DNA of 18,529 nt from Fictibacillus gelatini DSM 15865 (lineage in GTDB: Bacteria > Bacillota > Bacilli > Bacillales > Fictibacillaceae), in NCBI RefSeq assembly GCF_000430745.1, contig NZ_AUMP01000047.1, forward strand, positions 1 through 18,529, written 5' to 3'. The number at the start of each line of letters is the position of its first letter. Position 1 is the stretch's first letter. The notes under the pieces were generated by a model that worked only from the letters and a program-made list of their open reading frames with translations, did no database searches and was not told where the DNA came from. Positions 5,441-12,436 of the stretch are shown here, one piece after another. Position numbers and translations under genes: made by a program.

Positions 5441-5926
5441 TTGGCAGTCAAAGTAAAGGACACGTTCCGAATTGATTCAAAAATTTTAAGCGAATTTAAA
5501 AAACTGTGTGATCAAAAGGAACAAAAATATTCCCATGTCGTTGAGCAGTTAATGGAAATGTACATTCAAAAAGATGGGGAAATGTTGCTCGAAGATTTAT
5601 TTGCCCCTCGGCTAGAGGACATGGTGAAACGAACAATTAGAAAAGAAATTGATCGGGTCGCTGCCATGATTAATGATGTCGATGTGGATGTGAAAGCAAA
5701 TCTCTATTCCATTCCGGCCATGTATGTAAAAAATACAAAAACCATAGAAAAGGTGATTACGAGCTTTTTTCAGCATCAATTAGTCCGGCAGGATGGATTT
5801 TCAACGGTAGATGGTTTCAGCCGTTCCGAAGGAGACGACATGTTGCAGCGTTTTAGACGATTAGCGCGAGAAGACATCAATCAACGGAAAAAAGAGAGAG
5901 CCAAAAAGCGAGATGATGAATTGTAA
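5441..5926 (+). CDS. Ribbon-helix-helix relaxosome accessory protein (putative)
   Basis: TTG start at 5441 with GGAGG (5428-5432) 8 nt upstream. The N-terminus DTFRIDSKILSEFKKLCDQKEQKYSHVVEQLMEMYI fits an RHH. Its stop overlaps the relaxase start (TAATG at 5924-5928). Confidence 0.7.
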   Translation: MAVKVKDTFRIDSKILSEFKKLCDQKEQKYSHVVEQLMEMYIQKDGEMLLEDLFAPRLEDMVKRTIRKEIDRVAAMINDVDVDVKANLYSIPAMYVKNTKTIEKVITSFFQHQLVRQDGFSTVDGFSRSEGDDMLQRFRRLAREDINQRKKERAKKRDDEL

Positions 5927-6612
5927 TGGCTGGCTTTGTTTCGCATCGTTATCGAAAAAGTTTAGATGACAGCCGAGAACATGTGAAATATATCGCTTTT
6001 CGTTCGAGGGAATTGGCGACCGATCGAGGCGGAGCCTTTGACGCTCAAAGGGATAATGCCGATGTCAAAGCCTTTTTAGATAACTTAGACGATAAGAAAA
6101 CGAGGCATTCCAGTGTCGCTGTTTCGCATTCCCTTTTGTTTTCAATGTCAGGTTGGGAGTGGGAAAAAAGCCATTTTGAGCGCGGCGACTATCAGGAAAT
6201 GATTCGAAATATCATGAAAAATTATGAACTGGACACAGGAAGGAAACTAGAATGGATTGCCGCCGAGCATTGGCATGAAACCCATCCTCATGTGCATGTC
6301 GTTGTCAAAGCCGTTTATCAAGACCGGGACGGCGTACAAAAGCGCCTCAATTTTAGCGAAGAAGACCGGGCGAAATTCAAAGAGCTATTTCAAGAAGAAA
6401 AGAACCGGCTTCGAGGATTTGACCTCGATAAAGAGTTAGAGAGGGAACGAGAGGAGCGCCGTTTGGAATGGGAACGGCAACAGAAGGAAAAAACCAGAAA
6501 CGACTATATCGATGTTTTGTTAAGTGAACTGAAACGGAATATGGAACAAGAACTGCAGCGAGAAGAATACAGACGGCAAATGGCCAAAAATCAGATAGAC
6601 CGTTCACGATAG
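5926..6612 (+). CDS. Compact MOBQ-like relaxase (MobA/VirD2-type nuclease domain), 228 aa
   Basis: The candidate catalytic Tyr lies in REHVKYIAFRSRE (compare RSF1010 MobA AKADYIQREGKY). The histidine triad lies in LEWIAAEHWHETHPHVHVVVK (compare LAIHAGGGENPHCHLMIS). It sits between an RHH accessory gene and a T4CP gene. Confidence 0.7.
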   Translation: MAGFVSHRYRKSLDDSREHVKYIAFRSRELATDRGGAFDAQRDNADVKAFLDNLDDKKTRHSSVAVSHSLLFSMSGWEWEKSHFERGDYQEMIRNIMKNYELDTGRKLEWIAAEHWHETHPHVHVVVKAVYQDRDGVQKRLNFSEEDRAKFKELFQEEKNRLRGFDLDKELEREREERRLEWERQQKEKTRNDYIDVLLSELKRNMEQELQREEYRRQMAKNQIDRSR

Positions 6613-6624
6613 GAGGAGGATAAC

Positions 6625-8463
6625 ATGAAAAGGAAACCAATAATTCTCGCATTGTCCGTGGCATTATTGATGACCCTATTTCTAGATTATGTGTTTGCAT
6701 TATTAGTTACTGGGGTTCCGTTGTCGCTTAAGGTTCTAAACAATCCGGCTGCAGCCAGTCGAATCAGTTTTCTTCACGATTATCTTTTAAACCCTATACG
6801 CCTCATAAGGGAAAGTTTTCAAACTCCGATCTTTGTAAAAGCACAGTTAGTGTTTTTAGCTTTATTCCTATTTTTATTTGGTAAAAAATTATGGCAAGGC
6901 CGGAAACACAAAGCCGAAGACGCTTCCGACTATGCGGCTTACGGATCGGCACGCTACGCAACAGATGAAGAAATCGAAAATCATATGGATTTCTCTATCG
7001 GATTTGAAAATGAAGGAACGATTGTCGGTTTGCATAAAGGAAAACCTGTCGTCCATCATATGAAAAGCTTTAAAAACCGAAACGTGGCTCTATTTGGGAA
7101 ATCAGGGAGCCAAAAAACGAAGTCTTATATTATCCCGAACATTTTAAACACGACCAGAGATTCACTTGTCGTGACTGACCCTAAAGGGGAGTTATACCGC
7201 GATACGGCCGATATTAAACGAAAGCAAGGATATAGGGTTCTTGTATTAAATTTTAAAAATCCATATCAAGGCATGCGGATTAATCCATTAGACTATGTGA
7301 ATCATGATACAGATGCTTTAAGAATCGGGCAGGCGTTATTAAATAACTCTACAGCGACGGGGGGAGAAAATAAGTTTTGGGAAATGAATGAAGCCATTTT
7401 GATCGCCTCCGTTATTCTTTATGTGAAATATTTTCTACCACCAGAACAACAAAATTTAACGAGTGTATTCAACATTTTAAATTGCACGATTGAAGAAATA
7501 GGGAAACTCTTTGAGCCGATTGACGAACGGCATATTGTCAAAAAGAAGTTCCGTCAGTTTATGAGTTTTGATGAAAAAACACGCTCTATTTTGTGGGGTT
7601 CAAGTAAATCGGCCATTGACCTATGGTCATATGAAGAAATTAGCAAACTCACTTGTACCAGTGATTTCCGCATTGAAGATATTGGAAAAGAAAAAACCAT
7701 TTTATATATTTTGGTACCTTCGGCTGACCGAACTAAACGACCGTTATCTTCCACGCTCTTTTACTTGTTATTCGCGCAATTGAAGGCGGAAGCTGAAAAA
7801 TTCGAAAGCATTCGTTTACCTGTTTCCGTCCGTTTTCTTATCGATGAATTTGCGAATATCGGTAGAATTTCTTCATTTGATGAAGAGCTTTCAGTTTGCC
7901 GAAGCTACGGAATATTTGTAACGATCGCGATTCAATCCTTAAGTCAATTGGAAAAAGACTGGGGTGCGAATGGCCGAAAAGAAATCATTGATAACTGCGA
8001 TATTCGCCTTTTCCTTGGGTCTAACGATTACGACAGTACTAAATATTTCTCCGATCTTCTGGGAACCACAACCATGCGAATTAAAAATGAATCGGAAACG
8101 GAATCGGGTAATGGAACATCAATGGGTGAGTCGTATTCGTATATTCAGCGGAACCTAGAAACGCCGGATGAATTAAACCGAAAAGCCGATGATACACTCA
8201 TTGTCTTTGTTCCTGGCTCCCATCCATTAAAACTTAAAAAGGCGTACTATACCCATATCCCTGAAATTAAAGCCTTAATGGAAAGCGCGTCATTGTCTAA
8301 TATTTTTGAGTTTCAACGAGAAGATGATGACTACAGCGAGTTTATCCCACAAGAGGCTTTAGCCCTTCTTGAAAAAGAGGAATCACAGCAACAGGAAGAG
8401 CCACAAGAAGAGAATAAGGAGAAAAGACAAGAAAACGAAGAAGCGCTGCCGTACTGGGATTAA
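6625..8463 (+). CDS. Type IV coupling protein (VirD4/TraG family)
   Basis: It has N-terminal TM segments. The P-loop region ALFGKSGSQKTKSYIIPNIL aligns to the VirD4/TraG pattern ..PTxSGKGvg.vIPNLL. Walker B is VRFLIDEFANIG. The protein is 612 aa and has a strong RBS (GGAGGAGG). Confidence 0.85.
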   Translation: MKRKPIILALSVALLMTLFLDYVFALLVTGVPLSLKVLNNPAAASRISFLHDYLLNPIRLIRESFQTPIFVKAQLVFLALFLFLFGKKLWQGRKHKAEDASDYAAYGSARYATDEEIENHMDFSIGFENEGTIVGLHKGKPVVHHMKSFKNRNVALFGKSGSQKTKSYIIPNILNTTRDSLVVTDPKGELYRDTADIKRKQGYRVLVLNFKNPYQGMRINPLDYVNHDTDALRIGQALLNNSTATGGENKFWEMNEAILIASVILYVKYFLPPEQQNLTSVFNILNCTIEEIGKLFEPIDERHIVKKKFRQFMSFDEKTRSILWGSSKSAIDLWSYEEISKLTCTSDFRIEDIGKEKTILYILVPSADRTKRPLSSTLFYLLFAQLKAEAEKFESIRLPVSVRFLIDEFANIGRISSFDEELSVCRSYGIFVTIAIQSLSQLEKDWGANGRKEIIDNCDIRLFLGSNDYDSTKYFSDLLGTTTMRIKNESETESGNGTSMGESYSYIQRNLETPDELNRKADDTLIVFVPGSHPLKLKKAYYTHIPEIKALMESASLSNIFEFQREDDDYSEFIPQEALALLEKEESQQQEEPQEENKEKRQENEEALPYWD

Positions 8464-8497
8464 TTTATATAAAAAAATTCTATATAAAGGAGTGTTT

Positions 8498-9787
8498 ATG
8501 ATGAAACCTCAAATGTTCGGTGATGGCACGCTAACAGTTAACGGAAACCAAGTGATCTATGATATTCCAAGGCAAAAAGTACGGATAGAAAGCCTTGACG
8601 AATTACGGGTTTTAAGGCAGGAACATTCCATGTTTCTGCCTGTCACCGATCTCCGGCAGGACGACCATTATTTAAAGATTGTTTATGAGGTGCCGGAAGG
8701 CTACCACCCTTTTAATCTCTTAAAGAGAAAAGGGGATTTCCTGTTAAAATTAATGATTTCGGAGGATATCCTCGAAATCCGCCATTTAGAGGATGAATTG
8801 ACGACCATTATTCATCCGAATAATATTTTTTATTCAGGTGTCGGTAAGGTTAAATTCATGTATAAAGCAATTAAAGACGTTATGCCGGCCAACGGCTTTA
8901 AAGCTATCCCTTTAATGTTCCAGTTGCAAGCTCTCATCCTTTCCCTCTTTACCAAAAAAGACTATAACGAAATTAAAAATCAAGGCTTTGAGCCGTTTGC
9001 ATCCGTAAAAGATGAAATCGTGCAATCGATCATTAAGGCTCAATCGATAGAGGGGCTTCAGCAGGCCATCGCCCATTTTCGCGAACAGGAGCAACAACGG
9101 GTTTTAGCGAAACAAGAAAAGAAAGGGAAAGGCATTAAAATGCCGGGTGCTGCTGCTCTTTTCGCTATCATGATCGGCGCAGCTACCGGAGGAATTGGAA
9201 CTCACCTTGTCGAGGTGCAGCCTATAAAGTCAGGGCTCCAAGCCGATCTAAAAGAAAGTAAAAAGAAACAGCAGCAGCAAGAAATGTTACTCGAGGGTTA
9301 TCGGTTGGCCGCTGCTCATAAGCCGCAAGAGGCCATTAAAAAATTCGAATCCGTTCATGGTTTAACTAAGGATGATAAGGAAATCCTTTCCCATCAGTAT
9401 TTTTTGTTAGACAATCCGGAGGCCTGGGAGACGGCCGCTAAACTCAATCCGGCATTAAAAGATGATGTCGCTAAAAAACAGCTTGAAAAGAAAATCTCCG
9501 ATATCGAGCAAGCCTTTAAGCAAAAGGATTATAATAAGGCTATAGATTTGGCCAAAGGAGTAAACGATCAAAGAGCGAAAAAATTAGTAGGGGAAAGCTA
9601 CTTAGAAAAAGGAGACATCGAAACTGCATGGAAAGTCGCTACGGATATTAAAGATGTTCCTCTCCAAATTAAAGTTCAGGAAGCCTATTTGAAAAAAGTG
9701 GATTCAGACAAGAAATTATCTAAGGATAAGAAGAAAAAGAAAATGGATGCTATCAAGAAACGAATAAAGAATTTGAAAAAGAGGTGA
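8498..9787 (+). CDS. EssB/YukC-like (type VII secretion) bitopic membrane pseudokinase-fold protein with a TPR-like, Lys-rich C-terminus
   Basis: By-eye alignment to EssB/YukC N-domains: YDIPRQKVRIESLDELRVL versus F.FQR.K.KLE..LELDML; DHYLKIVYEVPEGYHPFNLLK versus DDALVVHIRPPSSFLPFAAIR; TIIHPNNIFYS versus LIVCPENIVFD; VKFMYKAIKDVMPA versus PYFLHYGVKESLPP. A single TM segment (PGAAALFAIMIGAATGGIGTHLV) is followed by a helical repeat region. I chose ATG 8498 (AAGGAG 5 nt upstream). The track start at 8369 overlaps the T4CP gene. Confidence 0.6.
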   Translation: MMKPQMFGDGTLTVNGNQVIYDIPRQKVRIESLDELRVLRQEHSMFLPVTDLRQDDHYLKIVYEVPEGYHPFNLLKRKGDFLLKLMISEDILEIRHLEDELTTIIHPNNIFYSGVGKVKFMYKAIKDVMPANGFKAIPLMFQLQALILSLFTKKDYNEIKNQGFEPFASVKDEIVQSIIKAQSIEGLQQAIAHFREQEQQRVLAKQEKKGKGIKMPGAAALFAIMIGAATGGIGTHLVEVQPIKSGLQADLKESKKKQQQQEMLLEGYRLAAAHKPQEAIKKFESVHGLTKDDKEILSHQYFLLDNPEAWETAAKLNPALKDDVAKKQLEKKISDIEQAFKQKDYNKAIDLAKGVNDQRAKKLVGESYLEKGDIETAWKVATDIKDVPLQIKVQEAYLKKVDSDKKLSKDKKKKKMDAIKKRIKNLKKR

Positions 9788-9795
9788 GAGGACAT

Positions 9796-10068
9796 ATGAA
9801 AGTTTCTTTTAAAGATAATGTCCAACGTGATTTTCCATATAAAAAAGGTGATTATGTTACGGTTGTTGTCCGATGGTTATATGAAAATGAAAAAGGGGCA
9901 GACCTTTATTATCATGGTACAATAACTGATATTGATAATAATGGATTTTGGTGCGTGCTTGACGATAACAAAACGCAAGAAGAGTATTTTAGCTTTAGTG
10001 AGATTGAAAACGTGATTGACGGTGATCGTATTCCTGGTTCAAGTAAAAGGCGAGATATTGACAATTAA
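9796..10068 (+). CDS. Small hypothetical protein, SH3/Tudor-like beta-rich pattern, 90 aa
   Basis: The sequence KGDYVTVVV...YHGTITDIDNNGFWCVLDDNKTQEEYFSFSEI gives the pattern. ATG 9796 follows GAGGTGAGAGG. It abuts the stop of the EssB-like gene (9787). A GTG at 9784 is an alternative start. Confidence 0.65.
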   Translation: MKVSFKDNVQRDFPYKKGDYVTVVVRWLYENEKGADLYYHGTITDIDNNGFWCVLDDNKTQEEYFSFSEIENVIDGDRIPGSSKRRDIDN

Positions 10069-10806: not shown

Positions 10807-11556
10807 ATGAAAAAAGCATTGACATCTTTGACTTCACTTTCATTATTTTGTTTATTGGCCGCTGCTCCCGCGAATGCAGCCTCGAATGACCATGAAATTA
10901 AAAGTAACAAAGAAACTCCAAGAGTAATTTATCAGGCAAAAGAGGAAAAGGACATAAACAAGCTATACAAAAAAGCAGTTAATGGTGTTTCCGATATTTC
11001 CGTTTTAGATCCGTTACATAATAGGGCTAAATGGAAACTTACTCCTGAGAATAAATCTGCAAAAGCAAAAAATACTGATATAGATCAATACGAAACGGCT
11101 CAAATTTTAAAAGTAGAAAAGGTAGGAGACACAGAAGTCCGAAATATTGCAGTTACAAGCTTTGCTGATGTTGGAATAGAATCTATTTCTGGTAGCCAAA
11201 ATGGATCAAAATGGGATCCATCTTATAGTGTTAAAGCTTATAGTACGATGTATTATACGCAAACGGTAAAGAGTGATGGGCTTACTTACGCTAAAGTAAC
11301 TAGAGGAAAAGGTGGATGGACGAATTCCGATCCCCAAGTTTATATTTCCAGCAAAAAGGTTATTTTAGGAACCACTGGCTGGCCAGCAGGAACCCAAACG
11401 TCAACACACTATCCTAGTGGCTCAACCTTTGATTATTCAGTATCTTTTGATTATGTAGCTTTATCTGCTGGACATGCTATTGGTGTAACCTCAAGCTGTA
11501 CTTTAAAGGATACAAGTGATACTTGGTCTTTGAAACTCAACAATAATTTACCTTAA
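10807..11556 (+). CDS. Secreted hypothetical protein (Sec signal peptide), 249 aa
   Basis: MKKALTSLTSLSLFCLLAAAPANA/ASNDHE has a typical signal peptide with an AxA cleavage site. The C-terminal half is beta-rich. I recognise no family. Confidence 0.8.
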   Translation: MKKALTSLTSLSLFCLLAAAPANAASNDHEIKSNKETPRVIYQAKEEKDINKLYKKAVNGVSDISVLDPLHNRAKWKLTPENKSAKAKNTDIDQYETAQILKVEKVGDTEVRNIAVTSFADVGIESISGSQNGSKWDPSYSVKAYSTMYYTQTVKSDGLTYAKVTRGKGGWTNSDPQVYISSKKVILGTTGWPAGTQTSTHYPSGSTFDYSVSFDYVALSAGHAIGVTSSCTLKDTSDTWSLKLNNNLP

Positions 11557-11845: not shown

Positions 11846-12436
11846 TCAAGTGGTAGAACCAACTTGAGAAGGTGTTTTCGTTTTCTTTGATATATATTCA
11901 CCACGCCAGATTTCTTCGAATGCTTTTTCATCTAACTCGAAATATTCATCAGCAACTTTTTTTAAATCTGTACTCTGACCTTTTGTTATGACTACCTCTA
12001 CTATCTTGCCTATTTTTTTCACTTCTTCAATAGGAGTCATATAGTCTGTGTCTCCGCTAATAATTATGGCTGTATCGTAGCTATTCATGTAAGCGCCAAT
12101 TAATAAATCTGTTGTTAAATTAACATCGGTTCCTTTTTCCGTTGCTACGTATGTTTTTGGATTGCTAGGGTCAAACACCACCTGAGGAATTTTATTTTTT
12201 AAAAGGGTTCCCATTTTTACTGTTGTCCGTGGTACAGTTTTTAGATATCCTATAATCCCATTTTGTACCGGTTCGTTTACTGTATAAAAGTATGTACGCA
12301 ATAAATGGCGATTAGGACGTTTATTAACAATAAAGTTACACAACTTTTCAAAGTCATATTTTGGTGGCTGATTTAAGTAATGCTTGCAAGCGTGATAAAA
12401 ATTATTAGCATCAATAAAAATCATTACTCTTTCCAT
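11846..12436 (-). CDS. NYN-domain (LabA/PIN-like) putative ribonuclease, 196 aa
   Basis: VMIFIDANNFYHACK...EKGTDVNLTTDLLIGAYMNSYDTAIIISGDTDYMTPIEEVKKIGKIVEVV matches the NYN pattern (IDg.N......kGvDv.la.D........D...l.SGD.Df.p.......G..V.v). The RBS is GGAGG. Confidence 0.85.
   Translation of the reverse strand: MERVMIFIDANNFYHACKHYLNQPPKYDFEKLCNFIVNKRPNRHLLRTYFYTVNEPVQNGIIGYLKTVPRTTVKMGTLLKNKIPQVVFDPSNPKTYVATEKGTDVNLTTDLLIGAYMNSYDTAIIISGDTDYMTPIEEVKKIGKIVEVVITKGQSTDLKKVADEYFELDEKAFEEIWRGEYISKKTKTPSQVGSTT

What the first reader, a model, noticed from the sequence alone, without database searches (positions are those of the whole stretch)
8498..9787. A type VII secretion EssB/YukC-like pseudokinase membrane protein inside a relaxase-T4CP conjugation operon
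The 429-aa product, whose gene starts 35 bp after the VirD4/TraG-type coupling protein gene, aligns by eye to EssB/YukC along its whole N-domain (YDIPRQKVRIESLDELRVL; DHYLKIVYEVPEGYHPFNLLK; IIHPNNIFYS; VKFMYKAIKDVMPA). It also has the same overall architecture: a cytoplasmic pseudokinase-like domain, a single TM segment and a helical-repeat ectodomain. EssB is known as a core scaffold of Firmicutes T7SSb, where it partners the FtsK/SpoIIIE-type ATPase EssC. Here there is no EssC, EsxA/WXG100, EssA or EsaA in the window. The neighbouring ATPase is a T4CP, which belongs to the same FtsK-like ATPase superfamily. This suggests a T7SS scaffold subunit has been recruited as a T4CP partner or adaptor in a Gram-positive conjugation system. 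As far as I know, that arrangement is not part of described Gram-positive T4SS models.
Basis: partly seen in the sequence, partly recalled or inferred. Interest (0 to 1): 0.7.

Follow-up and report, generated by a model that had tools for sequence, protein, structure and literature searches.

The report
EssB-like pseudokinase in a conjugation system
The gene does encode a membrane protein related to the type VII secretion scaffold EssB/YukC and sits in a DNA-transfer (conjugation) gene cluster, but this kind of protein was already described in 2026 as TraF of plasmid pIP501, so this is a new member of a known kind.

Summary
ORF 8498-9787 encodes a 429-aa protein with one membrane-spanning segment. 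It has an N-terminal pseudokinase domain (Pfam YukC, E=9.6e-21), one TM helix and a TPR-like helical ectodomain. It lies 34 nt after a VirD4-type coupling protein (T4CP) gene, and no T7SS gene is present in the window or its sister contigs.

The novelty claim does not hold. Its best solved-structure relative by sequence is pIP501 TraF-N (8CBA, E=1.6e-7). Kuhlmann et al. 2026 showed that TraF is an EssB/YukC-like pseudokinase essential for conjugation. A 2023 pUC11B study had already listed EssB similarity for a TrsF-like gene.

Homologues occur on 196 plasmids, 172 of them typed conjugative, and in every T4SS cluster I inspected. Most lie next to VirB4; some, as here, lie next to the T4CP.

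The T4CP-partner idea remains untested. In pIP501, TraF bound only itself and the VirB8-like TraM, and the T4CP here shows no FHA domain.

Most likely this is a scaffold subunit of the mating channel.

Side finding: the closest distinct relatives form a conserved chromosomal clade at the end of Tad-pilus/FHA/PP2C/kinase loci (27 of 27 loci). I found no description of this.

The parts
8498..9787 (+). TraF-family / EssB-YukC-like membrane pseudokinase with one TM segment (429 aa; alternative start at 8501)
   Evidence: Pfam YukC E=9.6e-21. PDB sequence search gives TraF-N 8CBA E=1.6e-7, EssB 4ANO 1.5e-3 and 4ANN 0.02. AF2 model pLDDT 92.8. Foldseek matches 6Z0F, 8CBA, 4ANO and 4ANN.
8498..9130 (+). 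Cytoplasmic pseudokinase domain (about aa 1-211)
   Evidence: Strands lie at aa 5-120 and helices at 139-211. TM-score to 8CBA is 0.82, rmsd 3.0 A, 23% identity. The positions equivalent to the kinase catalytic loop are I104, H106 and N109. Position 104 is mostly hydrophobic across the family, with no Asp among its six commonest residues, which cover 63 of 66 members. N109 is kept in 64 of 66, and there is no DFG Asp.
9140..9214 (+). Single transmembrane helix (about aa 215-239)
   Evidence: Best Kyte-Doolittle 19-residue windows fall at aa 213-238. The AF2 model has a helix at 218-239. A Lys-rich stretch, KQEKKGKGIK, lies on the N-terminal side, which by inference suggests an N-in topology.
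9218..9784 (+). TPR-like all-helical ectodomain (aa 241-429) with a Lys-rich tail
   Evidence: The domain-only AF2 model has pLDDT 97.5 and ten helices. The top Foldseek hits are the EssB ectodomain 2YNQ (E=1.6e-3, TM 0.35-0.44), followed by TPR proteins. The domain is conserved full-length in relatives.
6625..8463 (+). VirD4-type coupling protein (T4CP, CD1115 family) with two N-terminal TM helices
   Evidence: Pfam T4SS-DNA_transf E=2e-82 and TraG-D_C. NCBIfam NF045973 scores 366 bits, above its cutoff of 250. Hydrophobic segments lie at aa 5-31 and 67-86.
5926..6612 (+). Short relaxase-like protein (228 aa)
   Evidence: Weak profile hits: RlxS E=2.4e-10, MobP3 E=2.7e-7 and Pfam Relaxase E=0.003, all below their cutoffs. 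It carries the histidine motif HWHETHPHVH and an N-terminal Tyr in HVKYIAFR.
5441..5926 (+). 161-aa ORF whose stop overlaps the relaxase start; possible relaxosome accessory protein
   Evidence: The overlap reads ATGA...TAATGG. The same ORF order is conserved in the sister element L014. The function is inferred from position only.
9796..10068 (+). 90-aa ORF starting 8 nt after the EssB-like stop codon; function unknown
   Evidence: It is called in L003 and L004. It has no Pfam hit and no TM segment.
17672..18523 (-). VirB6-like TrbL_4 channel protein, part of the opposite-strand mating-channel operon
   Evidence: Pfam TrbL_4 E=1.1e-23. In L004 the operon continues upstream with a 182-aa protein, a lysozyme-like/M23 hydrolase and a VirB4-like ATPase. 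In L014 it also includes TraC-like and TrbC/VirB2-like genes.
17039..17668 (-). 209-aa protein with one TM segment, directly after TrbL; candidate VirB8-like (TraM-position) protein
   Evidence: It has an N-terminal TM segment at aa 7-35 and a soluble C-domain. It has no Pfam or PDB sequence hit. The VirB8-like assignment is inferred from position only.

Best explanation
ORF 8498-9787 encodes a TraF-family member: the EssB/YukC-like membrane pseudokinase of Gram-positive type IV secretion systems. It belongs to a conjugative element of Fictibacillus gelatini. The catalytically dead kinase-fold domain sits in the cytoplasm. One helix crosses the membrane. A TPR-like helical domain projects into the wall zone. 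The protein most likely acts as a non-enzymatic assembly scaffold or interaction hub for the mating channel, holding cytoplasmic and extracytoplasmic T4SS parts in register, as proposed for pIP501 TraF and for YukC in the T7SSb. Shown here: homology, fold, topology features, loss of catalytic residues, and T4SS gene context conserved in a 53%-identical sister element. Inferred: dimerisation, partners, and any requirement for transfer.
For: The best PDB sequence match is pIP501 TraF-N 8CBA (E=1.6e-7), ahead of EssB 4ANO and 4ANN. Foldseek gives TM 0.82 and 23% identity to 8CBA, and a full-length match to YukC 6Z0F. The catalytic Asp position is hydrophobic, and the model has no strands after residue 120, so no beta-swap domain, as reported for TraF. 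The window and its sister contigs carry a relaxase-like gene, T4CP, VirB4, a hydrolase, TrbL, TraC-like and TrbC genes, and no T7SS genes. Homologues occur on 196 plasmids, of which 172 are typed conjugative and 171 are staphylococcal, including pSK41 itself, at the TrsF position. Every plasmid or ICE-like context I inspected is a T4SS cluster. pIP501 TraF is essential for transfer, self-interacts, binds the VirB8-like TraM and co-purifies with most Tra proteins (PMC13037476).
Against: There is no functional data for this protein. A stop mutant of the TrsF/EssB-like gene trs13 of lactococcal pUC11B did not change conjugation frequency (PMC10221548), so the role can be dispensable in some systems. 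The gene is in the relaxase-T4CP module here, not in the channel operon. That fits a coupling-side role at least as well as a channel-scaffold role. The ectodomain's similarity to EssB-C is weak (TM below 0.45).
Confidence: 0.6

Rival explanations
1. One reading: the protein is a dedicated partner or adaptor of the T4CP. It docks the FtsK-like coupling ATPase to the channel in the way YukC/EssB docks EssC.
For: The gene follows the T4CP by 34 nt with its own ribosome-binding site. The same order is kept in the 53%-identical element L014. T4CP adjacency recurs in Bt p113275 and Priestia pPmC-129-1 (TrbL, EssB-like, T4CP) and in B. mycoides p78 (VirB4, T4CP, EssB-like, TrbL).
Against: In pIP501, two-hybrid assays detected no TraF-T4CP (TraJ) interaction, and only low amounts of TraJ co-purified. 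YukC binds EssC through EssC's FHA domains, and no pIP501 Tra protein has an FHA fold. The T4CP here shows only TM helices plus the VirD4 ATPase domains. The T4CP-adjacent members cluster together, so the adjacency may reflect one ancestral rearrangement and not repeated selection. Most relatives are next to VirB4.
Confidence: 0.2
2. The protein is an accessory or regulatory transmembrane sensor. It would link wall-side or recipient-contact signals to the cytoplasmic transfer machinery, and would be helpful for transfer but not required.
For: The pUC11B trs13 mutant showed no transfer defect. The closest distinct relatives (P0004, P0005, P0010) are encoded with an FHA protein, a PP2C phosphatase and an active-type Ser/Thr kinase. 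That points to a signalling setting for this lineage. Pseudokinases commonly act as allosteric transducers, as discussed in PMC13037476.
Against: The window has no kinase, phosphatase or FHA gene. pIP501 TraF is strictly essential, and its TM helix can be swapped with only a small loss of transfer. That argues against sequence-specific signalling through the TM helix.
Confidence: 0.12
3. The protein is a stray or incidental T7SS component: a real EssB whose T7SS partners lie elsewhere on the replicon, with no role in conjugation.
For: NCBI's pipeline names it 'type VII secretion protein EssB/YukC'. It passes the Pfam YukC threshold.
Against: It scores 80.5 bits on the TIGR03926 EssB equivalog model against a cutoff of 229.75. 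Genuine EssB proteins score 337-363 bits. No T7SS gene is present in the window or in the visible 13.9 kb of the 22.5-kb sister contig L004, or in L003 or L014. Synteny with the T4CP is conserved at 53% identity.
Confidence: 0.03

Closest known systems
TraF of Enterococcus plasmid pIP501 (PDB 8CBA; Kuhlmann et al., Microlife 2026, PMC13037476), with TrsF of staphylococcal pSK41/pGO1-type plasmids
   Same: It is a T4SS protein of similar size with one TM segment. It has an N-terminal pseudokinase fold (TM 0.82, 23% identity, phmmer E=1.6e-7), a single TM helix, a TPR-like helical C-domain, no beta-swap domain and no catalytic Asp. It is encoded in a VirB4/VirB6/VirD4-type Gram-positive conjugation cluster.
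   Different: Its gene position differs: after the relaxase and T4CP on the strand opposite the channel operon, instead of between VirB4 and the VirB1-like hydrolase. Its sequence still matches the Pfam YukC profile strongly, whereas staphylococcal TrsF does not match it at all. It is closer to Bacillus-plasmid, Tad-linked and one EssC-linked clade than to TrsF.
EssB/YukC of the T7SSb (PDB 4ANN, 4ANO, 2YNQ, 6Z0F, 9QKS)
   Same: It has the same three-part architecture and the same pseudokinase fold. The ectodomain's best solved-structure match is EssB-C. It passes the Pfam PF10140 threshold.
   Different: It has no EssC, WXG100, EsaA, EssA or YukD neighbours. It falls far below the TIGR03926 equivalog cutoff. 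It has no beta-swap element. Only the N-terminal half of the Pfam profile is matched. B. subtilis YukC itself is not found by pairwise sequence search.
trs13 (TrsF-like) of lactococcal plasmid pUC11B (PMC10221548)
   Same: It is a single-TM protein in a conjugation cluster, with HHpred similarity to EssB 4ANO.
   Different: trs13 sits after VirB4. Its stop mutant had no effect on conjugation frequency.

Membership tests
Pfam PF10140 (YukC) | Whole-protein score at or above the gathering score of 27.4 bits | tested here: met
   74.5 bits, E=9.6e-21, but only profile positions 2-177 of 357 are matched.
T7SSb EssB/YukC (functional equivalog) | NCBIfam TIGR03926 equivalog score at or above 229.75 bits | tested here: not met
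   80.5 bits. Canonical EssB proteins in T7SS loci score 337 and 363 bits.
T7SSb EssB/YukC (functional equivalog) | Encoded together with EssC (FtsK/SpoIIIE with FHA domains), WXG100/EsxA, EsaA, EssA and YukD/EsaB | tested here: not met
   None is found in the window or in L003, L004 or L014. For comparison, L018 and L021 are real T7SS loci.
T7SSb EssB/YukC (functional equivalog) | Cytoplasmic pseudokinase fold, a single TM helix and a helical ectodomain | tested here: met
   AF2 models. Foldseek matches 6Z0F, 4ANO and 4ANN with probability 1.00. The ectodomain match to 2YNQ is weak (E=1.6e-3, TM 0.35-0.44).
T7SSb EssB/YukC (functional equivalog) | Beta-swap element between the pseudokinase domain and the TM helix (a YukC feature according to PMC13037476) | tested here: not met
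   The AF2 model has no strand after residue 120. Helix 184-211 leads into TM helix 218-239. This is a prediction only.
TraF-type T4SS pseudokinase (pIP501 TraF / pSK41 TrsF) | Sequence and fold homology to the TraF N-domain (8CBA) | tested here: met
   phmmer E=1.6e-7, the best PDB hit. Foldseek E=2.2e-10, TM 0.82, rmsd 3.0 A. tblastn to TrsF-position genes gives about 1e-13 to 1e-14.
TraF-type T4SS pseudokinase (pIP501 TraF / pSK41 TrsF) | Encoded within a Gram-positive T4SS cluster (VirB4, VirB6/TrbL, VirD4, cell-wall hydrolase) | tested here: met
   T4CP and TrbL are in the window. VirB4 and the hydrolase lie just beyond the window in L004. The complete set is in L014.
TraF-type T4SS pseudokinase (pIP501 TraF / pSK41 TrsF) | Gene located between the VirB4-like ATPase and the VirB1-like hydrolase | tested here: not met
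   Here the order is relaxase, T4CP, then this gene. The VirB4-adjacent order is seen.
TraF-type T4SS pseudokinase (pIP501 TraF / pSK41 TrsF) | Essential for transfer; self-association; binding to a VirB8-like protein | not testable with these tools
   This is known only for pIP501 TraF. A possible VirB8-position protein is present at 17039-17668, identified by position only.
Active Ser/Thr protein kinase | Catalytic-loop Asp and the DFG Asp | tested here: not met
   The equivalents are I104, H106 and N109. Position 104 is mostly hydrophobic, with no Asp among its six commonest residues (63 of 66 members). The DFG-equivalent segment reads F-M-Y-K-A, with family consensus x-x-Y-R-G. The mapping goes through the TraF alignment.

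The most novel reading that the evidence does not exclude
In this lineage the EssB-like pseudokinase may have moved out of the channel operon into the relaxase-T4CP module, where it would act as a docking adaptor between the coupling ATPase and the channel. That would be a T4SS counterpart of the YukC-EssC contact that does not use an FHA domain. The same lineage would also be a portable membrane hub exchanged among three envelope machines (T4SS, T7SSb and Tad pili), because its nearest distinct relatives sit in Tad/FHA/PP2C/kinase loci.
Probability: 0.15. Interest if true: 0.6.

Novelty: new member of a known kind. Interest (0 to 1): 0.3.

Why it matters
For the finding as posed, the value is mainly corrective. 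The EssB-like protein is a regular component of Gram-positive conjugation machines. It was recently characterised as TraF, so it is not an unrecognised recruitment.

Two modest additions come from this work. First, the 2026 paper stated that no TraF homologues were found in other T4SSs. Here the family is broad: 115 representative clusters, 196 plasmids and several gene-order classes. Members such as this one bridge TraF and EssB at the plain sequence level. That helps annotation, because NCBI currently labels these proteins as type VII secretion proteins. Second, the variable position of the gene (next to VirB4, next to the T4CP, or first in the channel operon) gives a natural experiment for finding which partner it serves.

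The Tad-pilus-linked clade may be the most original lead. It places a YukC-like pseudokinase beside an FHA protein, a kinase and a phosphatase in a third kind of envelope machine.

Tried and rejected
- Megablast of the operon against plasmids found nothing.
- The word-indexed protein search found only 3 and then 6 relatives. The exhaustive HMMER search was needed.
With the single protein it found no relative among reference genomes, so the source replicon could not be extended beyond about 22.5 kb.
- I first read '0 of 66 members at E<=1e-60 on TIGR03926' and the P0072 context as meaning T7SS EssB proteins are uniformly the most distant group. That was wrong. P0028 (E=5.8e-22) is EssC-adjacent yet scores only 113 bits on TIGR03926. 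The family is interleaved by context, and the equivalog model misses one EssC-linked clade.
- The NJ tree is rooted arbitrarily, has no bootstrap and is sampled around the query. I use it only for nearest-neighbour statements that the E-value ranking also supports.
- PDB sequence searches of orf209 and orf249 gave nothing.
- The P0079 contig was too short to show context.
- Complex modelling with the T4CP was not possible with these tools.
Full report
**1. Observation.** ORF 8498-9787 (+) translates cleanly to 429 aa. Gene callers use the second Met, at 8501, giving 428 aa, and NCBI names the identical protein 'type VII secretion protein EssB/YukC [Fictibacillus gelatini]'. An AAGGAG site lies at 8487-8492. 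The upstream T4CP gene ends at 8463, and a 90-aa ORF starts 8 nt after the stop codon. The layout therefore looks operonic. The upstream protein is a VirD4-type T4CP of the CD1115 family, above the NCBIfam equivalog cutoff, with two N-terminal TM helices. The 228-aa protein before it matches relaxase profiles only weakly, but it carries HWHETHPHVH and an N-terminal Tyr, so 'relaxase-like' is reasonable. Pfam YukC matches aa 24-201 with E=9.6e-21 and 74.5 bits, above the gathering score of 27.4.

**2. Anatomy.** An AF2 model built on a 66-sequence family alignment has mean pLDDT 92.8.
- The beta-rich lobe spans aa 5-120 and the helical lobe spans aa 139-211.
- The TM helix is at 218-239. This is the only strongly hydrophobic stretch, and it is preceded by a Lys-rich segment.
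- The C-domain is all-helical.
- Foldseek against the PDB returns full-length YukC 6Z0F (E=1.5e-12, 425 columns), pIP501 TraF-N 8CBA (TM 0.82, rmsd 3.0 A, 23% identity), EssB 4ANO and 4ANN, the T7SSb core unit 9QKS, and then ordinary kinases.
- I mapped the catalytic loop through the TraF alignment. The equivalents of the kinase Asp/Lys/Asn are I104, H106 and N109. Across the 66 family members, position 104 is mostly hydrophobic with no Asp among its six commonest residues (63 of 66), N109 is kept in 64, and no DFG Asp exists. The protein is a pseudokinase.
- The model has no strands between the kinase-like domain and the TM helix. It therefore lacks the beta-swap element that distinguishes YukC from TraF according to PMC13037476.
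- Modelled alone, the C-domain has pLDDT 97.5. Its best solved-structure hits are the EssB ectodomain 2YNQ, but only weakly (E=1.6e-3, TM 0.35-0.44), followed by TPR proteins. PMC13037476 reports the same pattern for TraF-C.

**3. Surroundings.**
- The + strand module runs: MerR-like, SprT-like, 161-aa ORF, relaxase-like, T4CP, EssB-like, then small ORFs.
- The - strand at the right end carries TrbL_4 (VirB6-like), a 209-aa single-TM protein and a small polytopic membrane protein.
- Sister contig L004 shows that the - strand operon continues with a 182-aa protein, a lysozyme-like/M23 hydrolase and a VirB4-like ATPase.
- A 53%-identical homologue (P0002, locus L014) sits in an element with the same two-module layout, plus TraC-like and TrbC/VirB2-like genes.
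- The left end carries an HTH_36/DnaD_N protein and an HTH_17 protein.
- Pfam scans of 27 window ORFs and 3 sister-contig ORFs found no EssC, WXG100, EsaA or YukD.
- This is a Gram-positive T4SS element whose EssB-like gene sits in the DNA-processing and coupling module.

**4. Relatives and their contexts.** tblastn finds homologues on 196 plasmids. Of these, 172 are typed conjugative and 171 are from Staphylococcus, including pSK41 itself (NC_005024) and a record annotated TrsF. An exhaustive HMMER search finds 115 representative clusters, and many align full-length.

Contexts I inspected:

| Context | Members |
|---|---|
| T4SS, gene between VirB4 and the hydrolase (pIP501/pSK41 order) | Staphylococcus pLRSA417, Peribacillus, Mesobacillus, C. 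tyrobutyricum, Carnobacterium, P0060, P0119, P0051 |
| T4SS, gene next to the T4CP | window, P0002, Bt p113275, Priestia, B. mycoides p78 (a shorter 301-aa form) |
| T4SS, TrbL then EssB-like, with an IS5-disrupted region downstream | Bt pLM3 |
| T4SS, first gene of the channel operon in a chromosomal element | P0019 |
| Canonical T7SSb | P0072 |
| Adjacent to a 1515-aa EssC-type ATPase | P0028 |
| Tad/Flp pilus loci | P0004, P0005, P0010 |

Ranked by E-value to the window protein (P0002), the order is:
- P0002 (T4SS), 2.2e-131
- P0004 (Tad), 8e-50
- P0005, 1e-38
- Bt-type T4SS, 1.5e-33
- P0019 (T4SS), 2e-25
- P0028 (EssC-linked), 6e-22
- Peribacillus-type, P0051, P0060 and TrsF-type T4SS, 5e-14 to 7e-11
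- C. tyrobutyricum-type T4SS (P0070), 8e-10
- canonical EssB P0072, 3e-9

On TIGR03926, canonical EssB proteins score 337-363 bits, above the cutoff of 229.75. The EssC-linked P0028 clade scores about 113, Tad-linked members 92-108, the window protein 80.5, other T4SS members 53-86, and TrsF-like proteins do not match. The family is a continuum in which contexts interleave. The window protein belongs to a T4SS subclade and is not a canonical EssB.

**5. Literature.** Kuhlmann et al. (Microlife, March 2026; PMC13037476) solved TraF-N of pIP501 (8CBA) and identified YukC/EssB as its closest structural relatives. They reported the following:
- A traF deletion abolishes transfer.
- Both soluble domains must be linked through a TM helix for function.
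- In two-hybrid assays TraF bound only itself and the VirB8-like TraM.
- In pulldowns it co-purified with most Tra proteins but with little T4CP.
- No Tra protein has an FHA fold.
- They proposed that an ancestral T7SS pseudokinase gene was acquired by a T4SS.

A 2023 study of lactococcal pUC11B listed 'EssB similarity (4ANO, 100%)' for the TrsF-like trs13, and its stop mutant showed no change in conjugation frequency (PMC10221548). Its claim that the arrangement is not part of described models is out of date. The 2026 paper's remark that no TraF homologues were found in other T4SSs is not borne out by the survey above.

**6. Mechanism.**
- *Most likely (0.6):* a non-catalytic scaffold or hub of the mating channel. 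This extends TraF and YukC by homology and is supported by the conserved three-part architecture and by T4SS contexts in all the plasmid and ICE-like loci inspected.
- *T4CP-adaptor model (0.2):* this keeps some weight because T4CP adjacency is conserved in this subclade and in Bacillus plasmids. It has no direct support, however, and the only experimental system argues against it. The known YukC-EssC contact uses FHA domains, which are absent here.
- *Accessory or signalling role (0.12):* this is suggested by the dispensable trs13 and by the kinase/phosphatase/FHA neighbours of the nearest clade, but the window has no such genes.
- *Stray T7SS gene (0.03):* effectively excluded.

**7. Verdict.** The protein is a new member of a known kind, TraF-type EssB-like T4SS pseudokinases, with an unusual operon position. 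Interest is about 0.3. The points a specialist would note are the breadth of the family, the sequence-level bridge between TraF and EssB, and the mislabelling of these proteins as T7SS proteins in automated annotation.

**8. Side finding.** Using a subfamily alignment, I retrieved 24 chromosomal loci from Oceanobacillus, Virgibacillus, Ornithinibacillus, Gracilibacillus, Paucisalibacillus and Alkalicoccobacillus. All 24, plus L012 and L020, carry the same same-strand block: prepilin peptidase, DUF6382+FHA protein, PP2C phosphatase, Ser/Thr kinase, YukC-like gene. The short contig L016 shows the FHA-to-YukC part only. In most loci, TadB/C, Flp and TadE-like genes precede the block. None has a T4CP, TrbL, VirB4 or EssC match within 10 kb. 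Searches of the held literature found no description of this. YukC binds an FHA domain in the T7SSb, so a pseudokinase-FHA pairing under kinase/phosphatase control in a Tad pilus locus is a testable lead.

Noticed in passing
L012:10001-11359, L020:10001-11392, L016:3533-5014, and L023-L046 (match at 10001 onward in each): The closest distinct relatives of the window protein form a chromosomal clade in halophilic Bacillaceae. The YukC-like gene is always the last gene of a block: Tad/Flp pilus genes, A24 prepilin peptidase, DUF6382+FHA protein, PP2C phosphatase, Ser/Thr kinase. All 27 loci fit this pattern, although the short contig L016 shows only the FHA-to-YukC part. None has a T4SS or EssC marker within 10 kb. 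I found no description of this in the papers searched.
   Followed up: yes
window 14366-15781 (target-site duplication TCATA at 14361-14365 and 15782-15786): A 1,416-bp insertion is absent from sister contig L004. It has 38-bp imperfect terminal inverted repeats (GGGG...TAAG) and a 5-bp target duplication, which are Tn3-family hallmarks. It has no transposase. It carries a TetR/QacR-like repressor (14982-15545, -) and an SMR efflux pump (14605-14982, -). Its GC content is about 32%, against about 38% in the conjugation modules on either side. It looks like a non-autonomous resistance cassette inserted in a conjugative element.
   Followed up: yes
L021:4261-10165: P0028 is a YukC-like protein directly upstream of a 1515-aa EssC-type ATPase, yet it scores only 113 bits on the TIGR03926 EssB equivalog model (cutoff 229.75). 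The curated model therefore misses at least one EssC-linked clade. That clade is closer to the window protein than pSK41-type TrsF is.
   Followed up: partly
L048:6992-7897 (B. mycoides p78): A shorter 301-aa homologue lies between the T4CP and TrbL. It appears to lack most of the helical ectodomain, which suggests the C-domain is dispensable or lost in some T4SSs.
   Followed up: no
window 17039-17668 (-): A 209-aa protein with one N-terminal TM helix lies directly after the VirB6-like TrbL gene, at the position held by the VirB8-like TraM in pIP501. TraM is the only heterologous two-hybrid partner of TraF. This protein has no Pfam or PDB sequence hit, and its fold was not tested.
   Followed up: partly
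window 5441-6612 (+): The relaxase-like protein is only 228 aa, well below relaxase profile cutoffs, but it keeps the HxHxxHPHxH motif and an N-terminal Tyr. A 161-aa ORF precedes it, and that ORF's stop overlaps the relaxase start. The same pair is conserved in L014 (189 and 232 aa).
   Followed up: partly
window 10807-11556 (+), 13283-13951 (-), 11846-12436 (-): Two proteins with signal-peptide-like N-termini (249 and 222 aa, no family hits) and a NYN-domain nuclease lie between the two conjugation modules. Their function is unknown.
   Followed up: no
window 8498-9787, and NCBI annotation of the plasmid homologues in L002, L005, L006, L007 and L047: NCBI's pipeline names the T4SS-encoded homologues 'type VII secretion protein EssB/YukC', although they lie in conjugation clusters and fail the EssB equivalog cutoff. 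This is a systematic annotation issue.
   Followed up: partly
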